Positions 1-12,506 of a stretch of 12,770 bases of DNA are shown piece by piece. The notes under the pieces were generated by a model. It saw only the letters and a list, made by a program, of their open reading frames with translations. It was not told the origin of the DNA and did no database searches. The translations under genes and the position numbers were made by a program. Source of the DNA: a virus. The stretch is from the UHGV virus genome UHGV-0246522. One strand, written 5' to 3'. The first letter of the stretch is position 1. The number at the start of each line of letters is the position of its first letter.

Positions 1-701
1 GGATATTTCATGTCGAACTGGAAGGAGTGCCAGGCAGCTTCTTACTGGAGAATCTCGGTTATACCTTTGGTTTTATTATCGTCATTATGGCCCGCCAGCA
101 ATTATTTACCGAAAACACCGTGACTGCGGTACTACCCGTCATGCAAAAACCGACAATGAGCAACGTCGGCTTACTTATGCGATTATGGGGCGTCGTGCTG
201 CTGGGTAATATTCTCGGGACAGGTATTGCGGCGTGGGCATTTGAATATATGCCTATCTTCAATGAAGAAACTCGCGATGCATTTGTCAAAATCGGCATGG
301 ATGTGATGAAGAACACCCCCAGCGAGATGTTTGCCAACGCGATCATTTCCGGCTGGCTGATCGCCACTATGGTTTGGATGTTTCCTGCAGCGGGTGCGGC
401 AAAGATTGTGGTGATTATATTGATGACCTGGCTTATTGCCCTGGGTGACACCACCCATATCGTGGTCGGTTCTGTTGAAATCCTCTATCTGGTGTTTAAC
501 GGTACGCTGCACTGGAGCGATTTCATCTGGCCCTTCGCACTACCTACTTTAGCGGGGAACATCTGCGGCGGCACCTTTATCTTCGCGTTAATGAGTCATG
601 CACAGATTCGTAACGACATGAGCAATAAGCGTAAAGCAGAAGCACGCCAAAAAGCAGAACGTGCGGAAAACATTAAGAAAAATTATAAAAACCCGGCATA
701 A
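1..701 (+). CDS. yfdC: Inner-membrane formate/nitrite-transporter-family protein (YfdC-like), 5' end cut by the window edge; stop TAA at 699-701
   Basis: Reading frame is open from position 3 with no stop up to 701; the track ORF 27..701 is only the first in-frame GTG. Protein is strongly hydrophobic and multi-TM with an FNT-like LFTEN motif, and sits immediately upstream of tRNA-Arg(CCU), as yfdC does in E. coli K-12 as I recall it. Confidence 0.8.
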   Translation, partial: IFHVELEGVPGSFLLENLGYTFGFIIVIMARQQLFTENTVTAVLPVMQKPTMSNVGLLMRLWGVVLLGNILGTGIAAWAFEYMPIFNEETRDAFVKIGMDVMKNTPSEMFANAIISGWLIATMVWMFPAAGAAKIVVIILMTWLIALGDTTHIVVGSVEILYLVFNGTLHWSDFIWPFALPTLAGNICGGTFIFALMSHAQIRNDMSNKRKAEARQKAERAENIKKNYKNPA

Positions 702-851: not shown

Positions 852-1012
852 TTTATCAGTTCGCTCCCATCCGTACCAGTCCGCAAAATCCCCTGAATAT
901 CAAGCTTTCCGTAGATTTACAGTTCGTAATGGTTCGCGTCAGATCGTTGACAGCCGCACTCCATGACGGGTAAAAAGTGGATAAAATAATTTTACCCACC
1001 GGATTTTTACCC

Positions 1013-2170
1013 ATGCTCACCGTTAAGCAGATTGAAGCAGCAAAGCCGAAAGAAAAACCATACCGCCTTCTCGATGGTAATGGCCTGTACCTTTATGTCC
1101 CTGTATCCGGGAAAAAGGTATGGCAGCTTCGCTACAAGATTGACGGTAAGGAGAAAATCCTGACCGTCGGAAAATATCCGCTTATGACTTTGCAGGAGGC
1201 AAGGGATAAAGCATGGACCGCGAGGAAAGACATCTCGGTTGGTATCGATCCGGTAAAAGCGAAAAAGACTTCGTCTAACAACAATTCCTTTAGCGCCATT
1301 TACAAGGAATGGTACGAGCACAAGAAGCAAGTCTGGTCAGTAGGCTATGCAAATGAACTTGCAAAAATGTTTGACGACGACATTTTACCTATCATTGGCG
1401 GCCTTGAAATTCAGGATATTGAGCCGATGCAACTGCTGGAAGTAATCCGCAGATTTGAAGATCGCGGTGCAATGGAGCGAGCCAACAAAGCCCGCAGAAG
1501 ATGCGGCGAGGTTTTCCGTTACGCTATTGTCACTGGTAGGGCTAAATATAACCCGGCACCTGACCTTGCTGACGCCATGAAGGGATACCGCAAGAAGAAC
1601 TTCCCGTTTCTTCCAGCAGACCAGATCCCTGCATTCAACAAAGCACTGGCAACATTTTCAGGAAGTATCGTATCGCTCATTGCGACCAAAGTTTTACGCT
1701 ACACAGCCCTAAGAACGAAAGAGCTTCGTTCCATGCTATGGAAGAACGTCGATTTTGAAAACAGGATTATCACCATCGACGCCAGTGTGATGAAGGGACG
1801 CAAAATTCATGTGGTCCCGATGTCGGACCAGGTGGTTGAACTTCTCACTACGCTAAGCTCCATCACTAAACCAGTATCAGAGTTTGTTTTTGCCGGGCGC
1901 AACGATAAGAAAAAGCCAATTTGCGAGAACGCGGTGCTACTTGTGATCAAACAAATCGGCTATGAAGGTCTGGAAAGCGGTCACGGATTCAGGCATGAAT
2001 TCAGCACGATTATGAACGAGCACGAATGGCCTGCTGATGCTATTGAAGTGCAACTGGCACATGCCAACGGCGGATCTGTGCGTGGGATTTACAACCATGC
2101 TCAGTATCTCGATAAGCGCAGAGAAATGATGCAGTGGTGGGCGGACTGGATTGATGAGAGGGTGGCATAG
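1013..2170 (+). CDS. intS: Tyrosine site-specific integrase (IntS-like, argW-specific)
   Basis: 385-aa product from ATG 1013 (MLTVKQIEAAKPKEKPYRLLDGNG...), which I recognise as the CPS-53 IntS-type integrase. Position next to the tRNA and the C-terminal R..HGFRH..Y-type catalytic region support this. The track's upstream GTG at 977 would add 12 aa. Confidence 0.9.
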   Translation: MLTVKQIEAAKPKEKPYRLLDGNGLYLYVPVSGKKVWQLRYKIDGKEKILTVGKYPLMTLQEARDKAWTARKDISVGIDPVKAKKTSSNNNSFSAIYKEWYEHKKQVWSVGYANELAKMFDDDILPIIGGLEIQDIEPMQLLEVIRRFEDRGAMERANKARRRCGEVFRYAIVTGRAKYNPAPDLADAMKGYRKKNFPFLPADQIPAFNKALATFSGSIVSLIATKVLRYTALRTKELRSMLWKNVDFENRIITIDASVMKGRKIHVVPMSDQVVELLTTLSSITKPVSEFVFAGRNDKKKPICENAVLLVIKQIGYEGLESGHGFRHEFSTIMNEHEWPADAIEVQLAHANGGSVRGIYNHAQYLDKRREMMQWWADWIDERVA

Positions 2171-5718: not shown

Positions 5719-5973
5719 ATGGCTAGAGATGATCCGCACTTTAACTTCCGCATGCCTTTGGAAGTAAGAGAAAAATTAAAATACAGAGCAGAGTCAAATG
5801 GTAGATCAATGAACTCAGAATTGTTGCAAATCGTCCAAGATGCTCTATCGAGACCATCTCCTGTAAAAGGTTATCGCAATGAAGCTGAACGATTAGCCGA
5901 GATGCAGGCTGAACAGTTCAAGTCTGTGGTATTTGAGACACTTAAAAACATGTATGGCAAGGATGCAAAATGA
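5719..5973 (+). CDS. mnt: Mnt repressor (maintenance of lysogeny, Arc/MetJ family)
   Basis: 84-aa product MARDDPHFNFRMPLEVREKLKYRAESNGRSMNSELLQIVQDAL..., clearly homologous to P22 Mnt; divergent from arc-ant. Confidence 0.9.
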   Translation: MARDDPHFNFRMPLEVREKLKYRAESNGRSMNSELLQIVQDALSRPSPVKGYRNEAERLAEMQAEQFKSVVFETLKNMYGKDAK

Positions 5974-6551
5974 TCGATTACAACCCAGCAAAAAAAGAAA
6001 TCATCGCAGCTAAAAAGTGCCTAGAGCAGATGAAATCATCTACAAACCATGATGATTTTGAAATGCACTGGCGAGAATGTCTTGGGCATATAGAAAAGTC
6101 TTTCAGTAAGTTGCTCTGTGCAACAAAGCCGGTTAGTGGAAAATTTAGCAGCCACTTCAACCAAAAGTTCATGCTTAGAAAAACAGACAAAACACTTGCT
6201 TACCTTCACCAAGCAAGAAATGCTGATCATCATTCCACTATGGAAATCTCAAAACTTGAACCTCCTTATACTACTCTTGGGGCATTTCCGGGAGCAAGAA
6301 GCCATTATATTAAAGAGTTAATCATTGATTCAACAGGGAAAATAGCAAAATACGAAGGCGACCCTATGATAGTTGAGTTTCATCCAGCAACAACTATGCC
6401 TATAACCGTAAGAAACCAAGGCAAAGATTATCCACCTCCAACAGAACATCTTGGCGAAAAGCTTGTTGATATACATCCATCTGTTCTTGCCTATCTCGGT
6501 ATACAATTTTATGAAAAATGGATAGATGAGTCGTGTGCAACGTTTAGATAG
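5970..6551 (+). CDS. Hypothetical protein, translationally coupled to mnt (candidate accessory gene)
   Basis: 193-aa ORF whose ATG overlaps the mnt stop in an ATGA arrangement (5970-5973), with an AAGGA SD 8 nt upstream inside mnt. No family recognised by eye. Confidence 0.6.
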   Translation: MIDYNPAKKEIIAAKKCLEQMKSSTNHDDFEMHWRECLGHIEKSFSKLLCATKPVSGKFSSHFNQKFMLRKTDKTLAYLHQARNADHHSTMEISKLEPPYTTLGAFPGARSHYIKELIIDSTGKIAKYEGDPMIVEFHPATTMPITVRNQGKDYPPPTEHLGEKLVDIHPSVLAYLGIQFYEKWIDESCATFR

Positions 6552-6768
6552 TTATTTTTGATAATTTCAAGTATTTCCTCTTGACTTTGATTTACCCAAA
6601 CGTGATCACACTCATGAAACCAGATTATGCTTCCTGTTTCGCCTTGTGCAATATAGGTGATCATGTTTTCATTAACAATTATTACTGAGTTATCATGTGC
6701 GCAATTTAGTTTTATCAATTCGCATATCCTATCGTGACAAAGTAACTAGAAAAACTAAAGAGGTTGGT

Positions 6769-7263
6769 GTGTCTGATTCTATGAGTTACGCTGTGCTAGT
6801 TGCCGCAACTCTATTTATGGGGATAGGGTTGCAGATTGCGTGGTTCTTTTTTTCTAGTTTTATTAAACGCAAAAGAATTGAATCAAGGATATCTGAGATT
6901 TCTATTGCTATAGGGAAAAATGCTGAAAATCCAGAGAATGAGACCTGCGCACTGAATTACCTTAAAGAAAAGTTTTCCCCTGAAAAATTTGAAAATAGAA
7001 TTACTGATGCTCTTGGATTGGTAATATCAGTAATTCATATGCCACTAAGTTTGCTGATAACAGTGTGGTACTTCGCCATGATCGCCGGAAGAATATTTGG
7101 TTTCATGAATATAGAGCCTGTAGTTCTTTGGGTTCCAATGATACTGCAACTGTTGTTAAGCGTTGCTATCTTTATTTTTTCTGTTTTTATAAAAATTGTC
7201 TTTGGAAGATACCCCGGAGAAGCTAAGGGATTTAATAAAGAATTCATAAAAACTATAAAATAA
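6769..7263 (+). CDS. Small inner-membrane protein with three predicted TM helices, in the position P22 uses for sieA (putative superinfection exclusion protein)
   Basis: GTG at 6769 is 5 nt after AAGAGG; an alternative ATG lies at 6781. Three hydrophobic segments ([82 protein letters not shown]). Located between mnt and the gp16-like gene. The 6697 start in the track has no RBS. Confidence 0.55.
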
Positions 7264-10082: not shown

Positions 10083-11253
<1,171 letters not shown>

Positions 11254-11375
11254 TCGGCAAGGTGTTCTGGTCGGCGCATAGCTGGTAATCCAACTTTTCC
11301 CTGTTCTTTTTATGCAAATTAATCTAATGAAATTGAAAAGATTTTTACCTATTTTGTTGGTTCAGGAGAACATAA

Positions 11376-11657
11376 GTGAGCGATAAACAAGAAGTTTCCT
11401 TAGCACATATCAATGATGTGCTGGAGTCCAAAAATTATATTGAAACTAATGCTGATGGGGTTGTAACCATCGGAACGGATAACAATGGCTACGAAGTTTT
11501 TAACTTCGTTTTTCTCAATAGCACCCCTGTCATCGGCCATATGAATGGCGAAATCGCAGTGGCAGGAATGCAGCGCACTAAGGTTGCGTCCGTGACTTTA
11601 AGTAAACAGAAGGCCTTCGATTTCTATCAGTCCTTGAAAAGCATGTTCGAGGAATAA
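11376..11657 (+). CDS. Hypothetical 93-aa soluble protein, first gene of the cassette in the rexA-rexB slot
   Basis: GTG start with AGGAG 7 nt upstream; no hydrophobic segment; the DNA looks AT-rich compared with the flanking cI; no resemblance to RexA. Confidence 0.6.
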   Translation: MSDKQEVSLAHINDVLESKNYIETNADGVVTIGTDNNGYEVFNFVFLNSTPVIGHMNGEIAVAGMQRTKVASVTLSKQKAFDFYQSLKSMFEE

Positions 11658-11663
11658 AAGCTG

Positions 11664-12215
11664 ATGAATGCAGCTCAATCATCTTTGGATGAGGGAAAGC
11701 TAGTAATTGCTTACTCTGATAAGAATGGCTCTACAGTAGGGCTGGAATTTTCTTCTGTAGCATCAAGCCAAGCAACGCTCTTGATGAAAGCTTGTTCTGT
11801 TGCTGCTTCAGATAAAGAAAAACGGATTGTCACATCGGTTGTGATGGATGATACTGAGATCATTCAAACAACAAGTGATGATGGAGGCGACGACATGGAT
11901 AAGCGATTAGCAGTTCTTGAAGCTGAAGTTGCGCACATCAAGAGCAGCATGACAGGAATTAAAGAGGATACCCGGAAAATATCTTCTGATTCTACTGACG
12001 CCAAAAGAGACACCGCTGTACTTTTACAGAAGAGCCTGGATTTTGATGCTTCATTATCTAAGAAACCATCGGTTGACTACTTTGAAGCTAAATTTTCCGC
12101 TTTGGAAACCAAGATAGCAGATGTAAAAGTATGGATGCTCGGGGTTCTCCTGGCCTCGCTTGCTATGCCAACTATATTTTTCCTAATAAACTTGTACCTT
12201 AAGAAAGGTCAGTAA
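11664..12215 (+). CDS. Hypothetical 183-aa protein with acidic/coiled-coil-like middle region and a single C-terminal transmembrane anchor, second gene of the rex-slot cassette
   Basis: ATG 6 nt after the upstream stop. C-terminus VKVWMLGVLLASLAMPTIFFLINLYLKKGQ is a typical tail anchor; the preceding region LAVLEAEVAHIKSSMTGIKEDTRKI has a heptad-like pattern. No resemblance to RexB. Confidence 0.6.
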   Translation: MNAAQSSLDEGKLVIAYSDKNGSTVGLEFSSVASSQATLLMKACSVAASDKEKRIVTSVVMDDTEIIQTTSDDGGDDMDKRLAVLEAEVAHIKSSMTGIKEDTRKISSDSTDAKRDTAVLLQKSLDFDASLSKKPSVDYFEAKFSALETKIADVKVWMLGVLLASLAMPTIFFLINLYLKKGQ

Positions 12216-12223
12216 TTTAGCAA

Positions 12224-12250
12224 ATCCGGCCACCGAGCCGGGTTTTCTTT
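12224..12250 (+). terminator. Rho-independent terminator after the rex-slot cassette (tImm-like position)
   Basis: Stem ATCCGGC (12224-12230), loop CACCGA, stem GCCGGGT (12237-12243), followed by TTTCTTT. Confidence 0.55.
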
Positions 12251-12403
12251 GCCTCACGATCCCCATCTAAAGACACATAACCAATTGTATTTATTTCAAA
12301 ATTAATAGATACAACTCACTAAACATCGCAATTCAGATCTCTCGATCACCTTCCCAATCCACACAACCCTGCAAAAAATAAATCTATATAAAAAACATAC
12401 AGA

Positions 12404-12468
12404 TAACCATCTGCGGTGATAAATTATCTCTGGCGGTGTTGACATAAATACCACTGGCGGTGATACTA
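12404..12468 (+). promoter_or_regulatory. Lambda-type left operator and PL promoter: OL3 (12405-12421), OL2 (12425-12441), OL1 (12449-12465); PL -35 TTGACA (12439-12444), -10 GATACT (12462-12467)
   Basis: Sequence TATCTCTGGCGGTGTTGACATAAATACCACTGGCGGTGATACT matches lambda OL/PL as I recall it; oriented to transcribe the plus strand into N. Confidence 0.85.
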
Positions 12469-12506
12469 AGCACATCAGCAGGACGCACTGACCACCATGA
12501 AGGTGA

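What the first reader, a model, noticed from the sequence alone, without database searches (positions are those of the whole stretch)
11254..12252. Unrecognised two-gene cassette in the rexA-rexB slot between cI and OL/PL: candidate prophage exclusion or abortive-infection module
Seen in sequence: the cI gene ends at 11253 and OL/PL, nutL and N begin at 12404. Where lambda carries rexA (about 279 aa) and rexB (about 144 aa, multi-TM), this element has two tightly linked plus-strand ORFs instead. One is 93 aa, soluble, with a GTG start and a good SD. The other is 183 aa with a coiled-coil-like middle and a single C-terminal TM anchor. A hairpin plus T-tract terminator follows. Neither resembles RexA or RexB as I recall them, and the cassette looks AT-rich against the flanking cI. 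There may be weak similarity between residues about 28-46 of the 93-aa protein and 11-30 of the 183-aa protein (D-x-N-G core), but I would not rely on it. Established knowledge: cI-rexA-rexB are co-transcribed from PRM in lysogens, Rex is the classic two-component abortive-infection system, and this slot is a known site of gene exchange. Inference: a soluble partner plus a membrane-anchored partner expressed with the repressor is the architecture expected of a defence system, so this is the strongest candidate for a new system in the window.
Basis: partly seen in the sequence, partly recalled or inferred. Interest (0 to 1): 0.85.

Follow-up and report, generated by a model that had tools for sequence, protein, structure and literature searches.

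The report
Repressor-linked two-gene prophage cassette, function unknown
In the slot where phage lambda keeps its rexA-rexB exclusion genes, this defective prophage carries a conserved, lysogen-expressed pair of genes for a small soluble protein and a membrane-anchored coiled-coil protein; nobody has tested what the pair does, and it is a credible but unproven candidate for a new phage-exclusion module.

Summary
Lambda cI ends at 11253. A 93-aa ORF (A, 11376-11657) and a 183-aa ORF (B, 11664-12215) follow, then the tImm terminator (12222-12250) and OL/PL. Lambda homology stops at 11288 and resumes at 12223, so the cassette replaces rexA-rexB exactly.

New findings here:
- In 56 loci that carry a full-length B (29 distinct A-B pairs), an A gene lies directly upstream, and a prophage repressor gene of many different types lies upstream of A.
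- A distant A'-B' pair follows mnt in a P22-like phage, in the interval where P22 has sieA.
- A co-varies with B's N-terminal mini-domain, but not with B's coiled coil or its C-terminal membrane anchor.
- An invariant Gly-Gly-Asp-x-Met motif encodes the strongest Shine-Dalgarno site in the cassette. This predicts a 106-aa short isoform of B.
- Published O157 proteomes and arrays detect both products in lysogens.

No Pfam, PADLOC, NCBIfam, PDB or fold match exists. RexA, RexB, SieA and SieB homology is rejected. An exclusion or abortive-infection role is plausible by position and architecture but untested.

The parts
10540..11253 (+). Lambda-immunity cI repressor gene (237 aa). Presumed first gene of the PRM/PRE transcript that continues into the cassette.
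   Evidence: one amino-acid difference from lambda cI; 98.9% DNA identity to lambda over 10363-11288.
11254..11288 (+). Conserved 35-nt linker after cI, shared with lambda. It forms the left boundary of the exchangeable slot.
   Evidence: lambda homology ends at 11288. The same linker precedes the cassette behind the unrelated VT1-Sakai cI.
11289..12222 (+). The exchangeable cassette, which replaces lambda rexA-rexB.
   Evidence: no lambda homology in this interval; 97.9-100% identical in HK544, the Stx1 prophages and E. coli strain A3.
11364..11368 (+). Shine-Dalgarno AGGAG for gene A, 7 nt before the GTG start.
   Evidence: sequence; pairing energy -7.4 kcal/mol.
11376..11657 (+). Gene A: 93 aa, 10.3 kDa, pI 4.85, soluble. 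Predicted as five beta-strands plus a C-terminal helix. PHROG 12039; identical to ECs2991 and HK544c104.
   Evidence: Protein detected in O157.
11664..12215 (+). [not shown]
   Evidence: Protein and mRNA detected in EDL933.
11688..11804 (+). B N-terminal mini-domain, residues 9-47: beta-hairpin plus helix, pLDDT about 90. It co-varies with A.
   Evidence: AF2 model. Spearman 0.86, Mantel p = 0.001.
11883..11897 (+). Internal translation-initiation signal inside B: GGAGG (11883-11887), 7-nt spacer, in-frame ATG (11895-11897, Met78). It predicts a 106-aa B-short isoform.
   Evidence: strongest SD pairing (-9.3 kcal/mol) of 55 candidate starts. GGAGG in 12 and GGGGG in 3 of 15 distinct homologue contexts. 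GG and M invariant or nearly so; gene callers often start at this Met.
11892..12068 (+). B coiled-coil helix, residues 77-135, ending at the conserved KKP kink (K134 invariant, P135 nearly invariant).
12123..12203 (+). B C-terminal transmembrane anchor, residues 154-180. Only three residues (KGQ) follow it.
   Evidence: four unrelated anchor types across the family.
12222..12250 (+). tImm intrinsic terminator (stem 12222-12230 / 12237-12245, then a T-tract). It forms the right boundary of the slot.
   Evidence: fold; lambda homology resumes at 12223; annotated Timm in HK544.
12404..12470 (+). OL3-OL1 and PL. Context only, not part of the cassette.

Best explanation
The cassette is a mobile, lysogen-expressed accessory operon (a moron). 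It is transcribed with the prophage repressor from PRM/PRE and ends at tImm.

It makes three products. A is a small acidic cytoplasmic protein. B-long has a cytoplasmic N-terminal mini-domain, a flexible linker, a roughly 55-residue coiled coil and a C-terminal inner-membrane anchor. B-short (Met78 to the end) is the coiled coil and anchor alone, made from an internal ribosome-binding site.

A together with B's N-domain forms the specificity, or sensor, module. The coiled coil plus anchor forms a membrane-tethered effector or scaffold module, which is also found with unrelated partner proteins in other prophages.

The most likely job is to protect the lysogen against superinfecting phages. It would do this by acting at the cytoplasmic face of the inner membrane, either by blocking genome entry or by collapsing the membrane in a Rex-like abortive infection. 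B-short would set or damp the response by co-assembling with B-long.

Shown here: gene structure, boundaries, linkage to repressor genes, modular co-variation, the conserved internal SD, and expression in lysogens. Inferred: co-transcription with cI, translation of B-short, A binding to B, and the anti-phage function and its mechanism.
For: Position:
- The cassette replaces rexAB exactly, between conserved flanks.
- No promoter-like or terminator-like site lies between cI and A.
- In 56 loci with a full-length B (29 distinct A-B pairs), A sits 6-45 nt upstream of B, and a repressor-type gene lies upstream on the same strand. These repressors fall into 17 clusters at 70% identity; ten representatives carry HTH_3 alone or HTH_3 plus Peptidase_S24.
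- The nearly identical cassette follows at least 7 different repressors.
- A distant A'-B' pair overlaps the end of mnt in phage UPF_BP1, in the interval that holds orf59a and sieA in P22.
- The cI-to-N interval is a recognised site for exclusion genes such as rexAB and bstA (papers PMC7067206 and PMC8585504).

Expression:
- Its mRNA is at log2 11.8-13.0 in stationary phase (PMC2907692).
- ECs2991, which is A, was detected by proteomics (PMC3936929).

Architecture:
- B has a single C-terminal TM segment, a heptad repeat, and an N-domain modelled with confidence.

Modularity:
- A identity tracks the B N-domain (Spearman 0.86, Mantel p = 0.001), but not the coil (0.24) or the anchor (0.22).
- Short B homologues pair with unrelated partners in Klebsiella prophages and Salmonella phage S107.

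Internal start:
-, plus the gene-caller behaviour seen.

Selection:
- dN is far below dS.
Against: - No phenotype is reported anywhere in the searched literature.
- The same slot also carries cargo that need not be anti-phage, such as hicAB in mEp234. RexA itself has a regulatory role in the lambda switch (abstract of PMC11077077).
- The anchor sequence is very variable, with four types. That fits a plain anchor better than a specific pore.
- Only three residues reach the periplasm, which is an awkward geometry for blocking ejection proteins.
- The A model has low confidence (pLDDT 46). No test of an A-B complex could be run.
- The cassette is rare: about 2% of complete E. coli genomes.
Confidence: 0.45

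Rival explanations
1. Non-abortive superinfection exclusion. B, positioned by A, sits at the cytoplasmic face of the inner membrane and blocks genome translocation or the channel used by incoming phage DNA, as SieA, Imm or HK97 gp15 do. The cell is not killed.
For: A distant A'-B' pair occupies the sieA interval of a P22-like phage. B is membrane-anchored and fractionates with membranes or large assemblies. The variable anchor and the variable N-domain could reflect adaptation to different targets.
Against: Almost all of B, and all of A, is cytoplasmic; only three residues are periplasmic. There is no homology to SieA (hhalign probability 6%) or to SieB. The window's own prophage already carries a SieA-like gene at 6697-7263.
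Confidence: 0.17
2. The cassette serves the prophage itself rather than defence. It could be an addiction or toxin-antitoxin-like pair, with A neutralising a membrane-toxic B. Or it could modulate the lysis-lysogeny switch, induction or lysis timing, as RexA modulates the lambda switch.
For: A small acidic protein is encoded first, and the downstream membrane protein may be translationally coupled to it (6-nt gap, SD inside A's 3' end). hicAB sits in the same slot in mEp234. RexA has a switch-biasing role (PMC11077077 abstract). The cassette is retained in two independently deleted, defective prophages: this window and strain 2020CK-00188.
Against: No similarity to any TA family. A is not predicted to bind DNA, since it is acidic with no HTH. 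Partner swapping around a conserved coil-and-anchor module is more typical of sensor/effector systems than of TA pairs.
Confidence: 0.2
3. Lysogenic conversion of host physiology, unrelated to phage. The pair would be a tail-anchored stress or envelope factor in the manner of ElaB, YqjD or YgaM (recalled from my own knowledge), or a colonisation factor of EHEC.
For: mRNA is high in stationary phase and rises about twofold in an rpoS mutant. A was detected in rumen-fluid cultures. B has a tail-anchored coiled-coil topology. The cassette is enriched in O157:H7.
Against: No Pfam match to DUF883 or any stress family. Strict linkage to repressor genes of many phage types across seven or more genera points to a phage-centred function. 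The O157 enrichment simply follows the Stx1 prophage.
Confidence: 0.12
4. The ORFs are chance or decaying reading frames with no function.
For: No annotation or domain in any library.
Against: dN is far below dS. Paired homologues are conserved in many genera. Both proteins are detected by mass spectrometry.
Confidence: 0.01

Closest known systems
Lambda RexA-RexB (abortive infection; cI-rexA-rexB operon)
   Same: The cassette sits at the identical genomic position, between the post-cI linker and tImm. Transcription with the repressor is presumed. Both have two components, one soluble and one in the inner membrane. Both may produce the membrane partner in excess of the soluble one: pLit in lambda (as noted in the Timm annotation), the internal start here.
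   Different: No sequence relationship (hhalign probabilities 0.8% and 0.4%). RexA is 279 aa and binds DNA (abstract of PMC11077077); A is 93 aa and acidic. No phenotype is known for A-B.
P22 SieA and the SieB/Esc pair (superinfection exclusion)
   Same: A distant A'-B' pair occupies the mnt-to-gene-16 interval that holds sieA in P22. The predicted in-frame short isoform of B recalls SieB and its internal-start product Esc, which I cite from my own knowledge of the P22 literature.
   Different: No homology. No SieA- or SieB-like arrangement of hydrophobic segments is seen in B, which has a single C-terminal one. The isoform is predicted, not shown.
BstA (the cI-bstA operon of Salmonella prophage BTP1)
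   Same: A defence gene lies immediately downstream of the prophage repressor and shares its promoter, and this synteny is conserved across many prophages (PMC8585504 and PMC7067206).
   Different: BstA is a single gene and is reported to localise to sites of phage DNA replication (PMC8585504 abstract). There is no PADLOC hit to any known system.
PHROG families 12039, 12602 and 3556 (unknown function)
   Same: A matches phrog_12039 and B matches phrog_12602 end to end (E = 7e-65 and 2e-123). B residues 60-181 match the C-terminal half of phrog_3556 (E = 4e-26).
   Different: These are sequence clusters with no assigned function. phrog_3556 has a different, longer N-terminal part.
Tail-anchored coiled-coil proteins (XhlA of PBSX, SNARE-like proteins, ATP synthase b, FtsL): analogues only
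   Different: All scores are below family thresholds and are driven by heptad repeats. There is no evidence of common descent or of shared function.

Membership tests
RexA/RexB exclusion system | Homology of the soluble partner to RexA | tested here: not met
   hhalign of the A profile against lambda RexA gives probability 0.4%. No Pfam hit.
RexA/RexB exclusion system | Homology of the membrane partner to RexB | tested here: not met
   hhalign of the B profile against lambda RexB gives probability 0.8%. B has one C-terminal hydrophobic segment only.
RexA/RexB exclusion system | Location in the cI-to-tImm operon, downstream of the repressor | tested here: met
   Lambda homology is interrupted only between 11289 and 12222. 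No promoter or terminator match lies between cI and A.
RexA/RexB exclusion system | Exclusion of T4 rII and other phages with loss of membrane potential | not testable with these tools
   Needs plating and membrane-potential assays.
SieA / SieB superinfection exclusion proteins | Sequence homology to P22 SieA or to SieB | tested here: not met
   hhalign gives probability 6% against SieA and 0.4% against SieB.
Any defence system in PADLOC-DB 2.0.0 | Profile match of either protein to a catalogued defence protein | tested here: not met
   No hit for A or B. Across 50 B homologues there is only coiled-coil noise, to LmuB, JetA and PbeC (best E = 2e-4). Systems described after 2023 were not covered.
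XhlA / holin-associated tail-anchored proteins (PF10779) | Pfam match above the gathering score | tested here: not met
   8 of 50 members match, with best E = 0.024, so none reaches significance.
Type II toxin-antitoxin pairs (such as the hicAB found in the same slot) | Homology to a known toxin or antitoxin fold | tested here: not met
   Pfam and NCBIfam give nothing. Toxicity of B and neutralisation by A were not testable.
PHROG 12039 + PHROG 12602 (uncharacterised phage protein families) | Full-length profile match | tested here: met
   E = 6.7e-65 (1-93 of 93) and E = 2.4e-123 (1-183 of 183).
Tail-anchored inner-membrane proteins (a structural class) | Single hydrophobic segment within about 30 residues of the C-terminus, and no other hydrophobic segment upstream of it (so no hydrophobic N-terminal leader) | tested here: met
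   [not shown]
Repressor-linked prophage morons | Conserved position directly downstream of, and co-oriented with, diverse prophage repressor genes | tested here: met
   The loci carry 17 repressor clusters. One variant lies behind mnt.

The most novel reading that the evidence does not exclude
A-B is the founding example of a new, modular, membrane-tethered anti-phage system. It is confined to the repressor operons (immC and immI) of enterobacterial prophages. An exchangeable sensor module (A plus the B N-domain, or unrelated partners in other prophages) controls a conserved tail-anchored coiled-coil effector. That effector is made as two isoforms from one gene, and the short isoform sets the trigger threshold or protects the resident phage.
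Probability: 0.3. Interest if true: 0.7.

Novelty: new variant of a known kind. Interest (0 to 1): 0.55.

Why it matters
If the pair is an exclusion system, it would add a mechanistically distinct member to the small set of defences wired directly to prophage repressors: RexAB, BstA, and SieA behind Mnt. It has a very simple effector, a tail-anchored coiled coil, which should be easy to dissect.

It is carried by the Stx1 prophage of E. coli O157:H7. It may therefore influence which phages, including therapeutic or Stx-converting ones, can grow on EHEC.

The predicted two-isoform design and the sensor/effector mosaic give concrete, cheap experiments. If the pair turns out not to be anti-phage, it is still an abundant lysogen-expressed membrane protein of unknown role in a major pathogen.

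Tried and rejected

3. Sequence profiles against PDB: none for A, coiled-coil noise for B.

4. An exhaustive profile search with A found only about 20 clusters among 1.84 billion representatives. The long hits are repeat proteins (one is built of FN3-like repeats), which I judge spurious.

6. I considered that the invariant Gly-Gly is only a flexible hinge. This is less likely than an SD constraint. The first Gly codon is GGA or GGG in 15 of 15 distinct contexts, while neighbouring synonymous sites vary freely. The site also has the best SD pairing in the cassette.

8. An internal promoter for B: the only match is weak, 9 of 12 at 11827-11855. The region as a whole has fewer promoter-like sites than its shuffles, 3 against a mean of 4.4.

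Full report
**1. What is in the sequence**

The window carries lambda cI on the + strand (10540-11253; one residue differs from lambda). After a 122-nt spacer come two genes:
- ORF A, 11376-11657 (93 aa), with a GTG start and AGGAG 7 nt upstream.
- ORF B, 11664-12215 (183 aa), starting 6 nt after A's stop, with GAGG inside the end of A.

A hairpin plus T-tract at 12222-12250 follows. OL/PL (PL at 12439-12467), nutL and N come next.

BLASTN against lambda shows 98.9% identity over 10363-11288, no homology over 11289-12222, and homology again from 12223. The cassette therefore replaces rexA-rexB exactly, between a conserved 35-nt post-cI linker and tImm.

GC content is 0.455 for cI, 0.422 for A and 0.413 for B, so the cassette is only slightly AT-richer. 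The scan finds no promoter-like or terminator-like site between cI and A.

**2. Not a new sequence**

The cassette is 97.9% identical to phage HK544 (EF120455, the immunity-region record), where the genes are HK544c104 and HK544c103, "conserved hypothetical" proteins similar to ECs2991/ECs2992 of O157 Sakai, followed by an annotated Timm.

It is 99.5% identical to the Stx1 prophage VT1-Sakai/Sp15 and to CP-933V. There it follows a different cI, and the identity runs from the cI stop codon to just past the terminator.

It occurs in 93 of 5426 complete E. coli genomes, mostly O157:H7. The 100% match is a P22-like prophage of bat isolate A3. A 76%-identical version behind a Rac-type repressor is in 13 more genomes.

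Papers that cite the 2007 immunity-region study describe the cI-to-N interval as a mosaic site for accessory genes such as rexAB and bstA. Other lambda-immunity phages carry hicAB plus an ORF (mEp234), or a single 301-aa ORF (CL707), in the same slot.

I found no paper that assigns a function to the pair.

**3. Real, expressed genes**

Against homologues 65-76% identical in DNA, dN is 0.1-0.7 while dS is saturated.

[quoted passage not shown] My computed mass is 19,770 Da, and residues 41-45 read MKACS. It was detected only in the >280 kDa size-exclusion fraction, which is enriched in membrane proteins (APEX 858 against 0). Its mRNA is at log2 11.8-13.0 in stationary-phase cultures. ECs2991, which is A, appears in an O157 proteome.

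**4. The proteins**

A is 10.3 kDa and acidic (pI 4.85) with no hydrophobic segment. AF2 predicts five strands and a C-terminal helix, but with low confidence (pLDDT 46.5). An exhaustive profile search of 1.84 billion representatives finds only about 20 clusters. The short ones (85-103 aa) are true relatives.

B (AF2 pLDDT 72) has four parts:
- A confidently modelled beta-hairpin-plus-helix mini-domain, residues 9-47.
- A disordered acidic linker.
- A long helix, 77-132, with a heptad pattern (12 of 17 a/d positions hydrophobic).
- After a conserved KKP kink (K134 invariant, P135 nearly invariant), a second helix ending in the only hydrophobic segment, residues 154-180 of 183.

That is a tail-anchored topology: nearly everything is cytoplasmic.

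No Pfam, PADLOC, NCBIfam or PDB-sequence match exists for either protein. Across 50 B homologues, only generic coiled-coil families appear, all below their cut-offs. Fold searches give only coiled coils. hhalign rejects RexA, RexB, SieA and SieB. A and B are not paralogues. Both match PHROGs of unknown function.

**5. Context across relatives**

I collected loci from assemblies and IMG/VR. In all 56 loci with a full-length B (29 distinct A-B pairs), an A gene lies 6-45 nt upstream. The next upstream gene on the same strand is a repressor type in every locus where it is intact. These fall into 17 clusters at 70% identity; ten representatives have HTH_3 alone or HTH_3 plus Peptidase_S24. The hosts include Escherichia, Klebsiella, Citrobacter, Enterobacter, Cronobacter, Salmonella, Serratia and Pantoea. 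The nearly identical cassette sits behind at least seven different repressors.

More distant forms keep the coil-plus-anchor but change the partner:
- Two IMG/VR prophages have a weakly A-like 88-aa gene before a short-N B.
- Klebsiella prophages have cI, then an unrelated 142-aa gene, then a 126-aa B'.
- Salmonella phage S107 pairs a B' with an unrelated 124-aa protein that gives only a weak, sub-threshold match to the Lar family.

In the P22-like phage UPF_BP1, a weakly A-like 94-aa gene and a 149-aa B' start inside the end of mnt and fill the mnt-to-gene-16 interval. In P22 that interval holds orf59a and the exclusion gene sieA. So versions of the module have been captured behind both lysogeny repressors of lambdoid phages, in the two places classically occupied by exclusion genes.

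**6. Mosaic structure**

Among the 29 distinct A-B pairs, identity in A tracks identity in the B N-domain (Spearman 0.86, Mantel p = 0.001). It tracks the coil only weakly (0.24) and the C-terminal part only weakly (0.22). At least four unrelated anchor sequences occur.

[A + B N-domain] therefore behaves as one unit and [coil + anchor] as another. The breakpoint lies near the invariant DGGD(D/N)M-x-R-L-A-x-L-E motif. Either A-to-B-N contact or simple adjacency of the two coding regions would produce this pattern. I could not separate the two explanations.

**7. A probable internal start**

The invariant Gly-Gly-Asp-x-Met is encoded as GAT GGA GGC GAC GAC ATG (11880-11897). That is GGAGG, 7 nt, then an in-frame ATG at Met78.

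Of 55 ATG/GTG/TTG codons between 11300 and 12213, this one has the strongest predicted pairing with the 16S 3' end: -9.3 kcal/mol, against -7.4 for A's start and -5.9 for B's start.

In 15 distinct homologue DNA contexts, the first Gly codon is always GGA or GGG, giving GGAGG in 12 and GGGGG in 3. Meanwhile the second Gly codon and the Asp/Asn codons vary freely at their third positions.

Gene callers frequently begin the gene at this Met (P0085, P0087; L013 5519-5815).

I infer a 106-aa B-short (11.8 kDa, pI 8.9) consisting of the coil and anchor only. This is a prediction, not a demonstration.

**8. Interpretation**

Shown: a mobile, conserved, lysogen-expressed two-gene module tied to repressor genes, and a soluble partner plus a tail-anchored coiled-coil partner with a modular build.

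Inferred: co-transcription from PRM/PRE, B-short, A-B contact, and function.

The best-supported function is protection of the lysogen against other phages at the inner membrane. [A + B-N] would be the specificity module and the coil-anchor the effector or scaffold. I put this at about 0.45 overall, and I cannot decide between Rex-like abortive infection and Sie-like entry block.

Serious rivals are a prophage-internal role (addiction, or switch or lysis modulation; about 0.2) and a host-physiology role (about 0.12). It is not a member of any known family. It resembles RexAB only in position and two-component logic.

**9. Verdict**

The cassette is a previously catalogued but functionally unexplored gene pair. 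It is a good experimental candidate rather than a demonstrated new system. Interest 0.55.

Noticed in passing
window 10083-10439 (- strand); joint at 10362/10363: cro is truncated after about 26 codons and fused in frame to the middle of a P22 gp7-type DNA-ejection gene. Everything from the rest of cro through cII, replication, nin, lysis and head genes is missing. The prophage is therefore defective, yet it keeps cI-A-B intact. Strain 2020CK-00188 carries the same cassette in a prophage with a different internal deletion.
   Followed up: partly
window 5719-7263 (+ strand): The immI region of this P22-like remnant has mnt (5719-5973), then an overlapping 193-aa ORF of unknown function (5970-6551, phrog_23516), then a SieA-like gene (6697-7263). 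The 193-aa ORF is a second uncharacterised gene wired directly to a lysogeny repressor.
   Followed up: no
window 10463 and 10475: There are two C-to-T differences from lambda in the PR/OR1 region. The one at 10475 changes OR1 from TATCACCGCCAGAGGTA to TATCACCGCTAGAGGTA. The effect on repressor or Cro binding was not assessed.
   Followed up: no
L065 (Salmonella phage UPF_BP1) 3045-3782: A weakly A-like 94-aa gene and a 149-aa B homologue begin inside the 3' end of mnt. They fill the interval that holds orf59a and sieA in P22.
   Followed up: yes
L016 4571-5381 (Klebsiella prophage); L066 3041-3785 (Salmonella phage S107): Short B homologues (coil and anchor with a short N-terminus) are paired with unrelated upstream proteins. 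In Klebsiella this is a 142-aa protein with no family match. In S107 it is a 124-aa protein with only a weak, sub-threshold resemblance to Lar restriction-alleviation proteins (TIGR03655, E = 0.004, below cut-off).
   Followed up: partly
[not shown]
   Followed up: partly
proteins P0145, P0148, P0153, P0154 (hits to the A profile): The A profile also matches long repeat proteins in several stretches each; one of them is built of FN3-like repeats. This is probably compositional or beta-strand-pattern noise inflated by repetition, but a distant beta-sandwich relationship was not excluded.
   Followed up: no
window 27-701 and 977-2170 (+ strand): An integrase gene (977-2170) is preceded by a 224-aa ORF that matches only the C-terminal part of an unknown-function PHROG (phrog_12662, profile positions 87-310). 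It runs off the window start.
   Followed up: no
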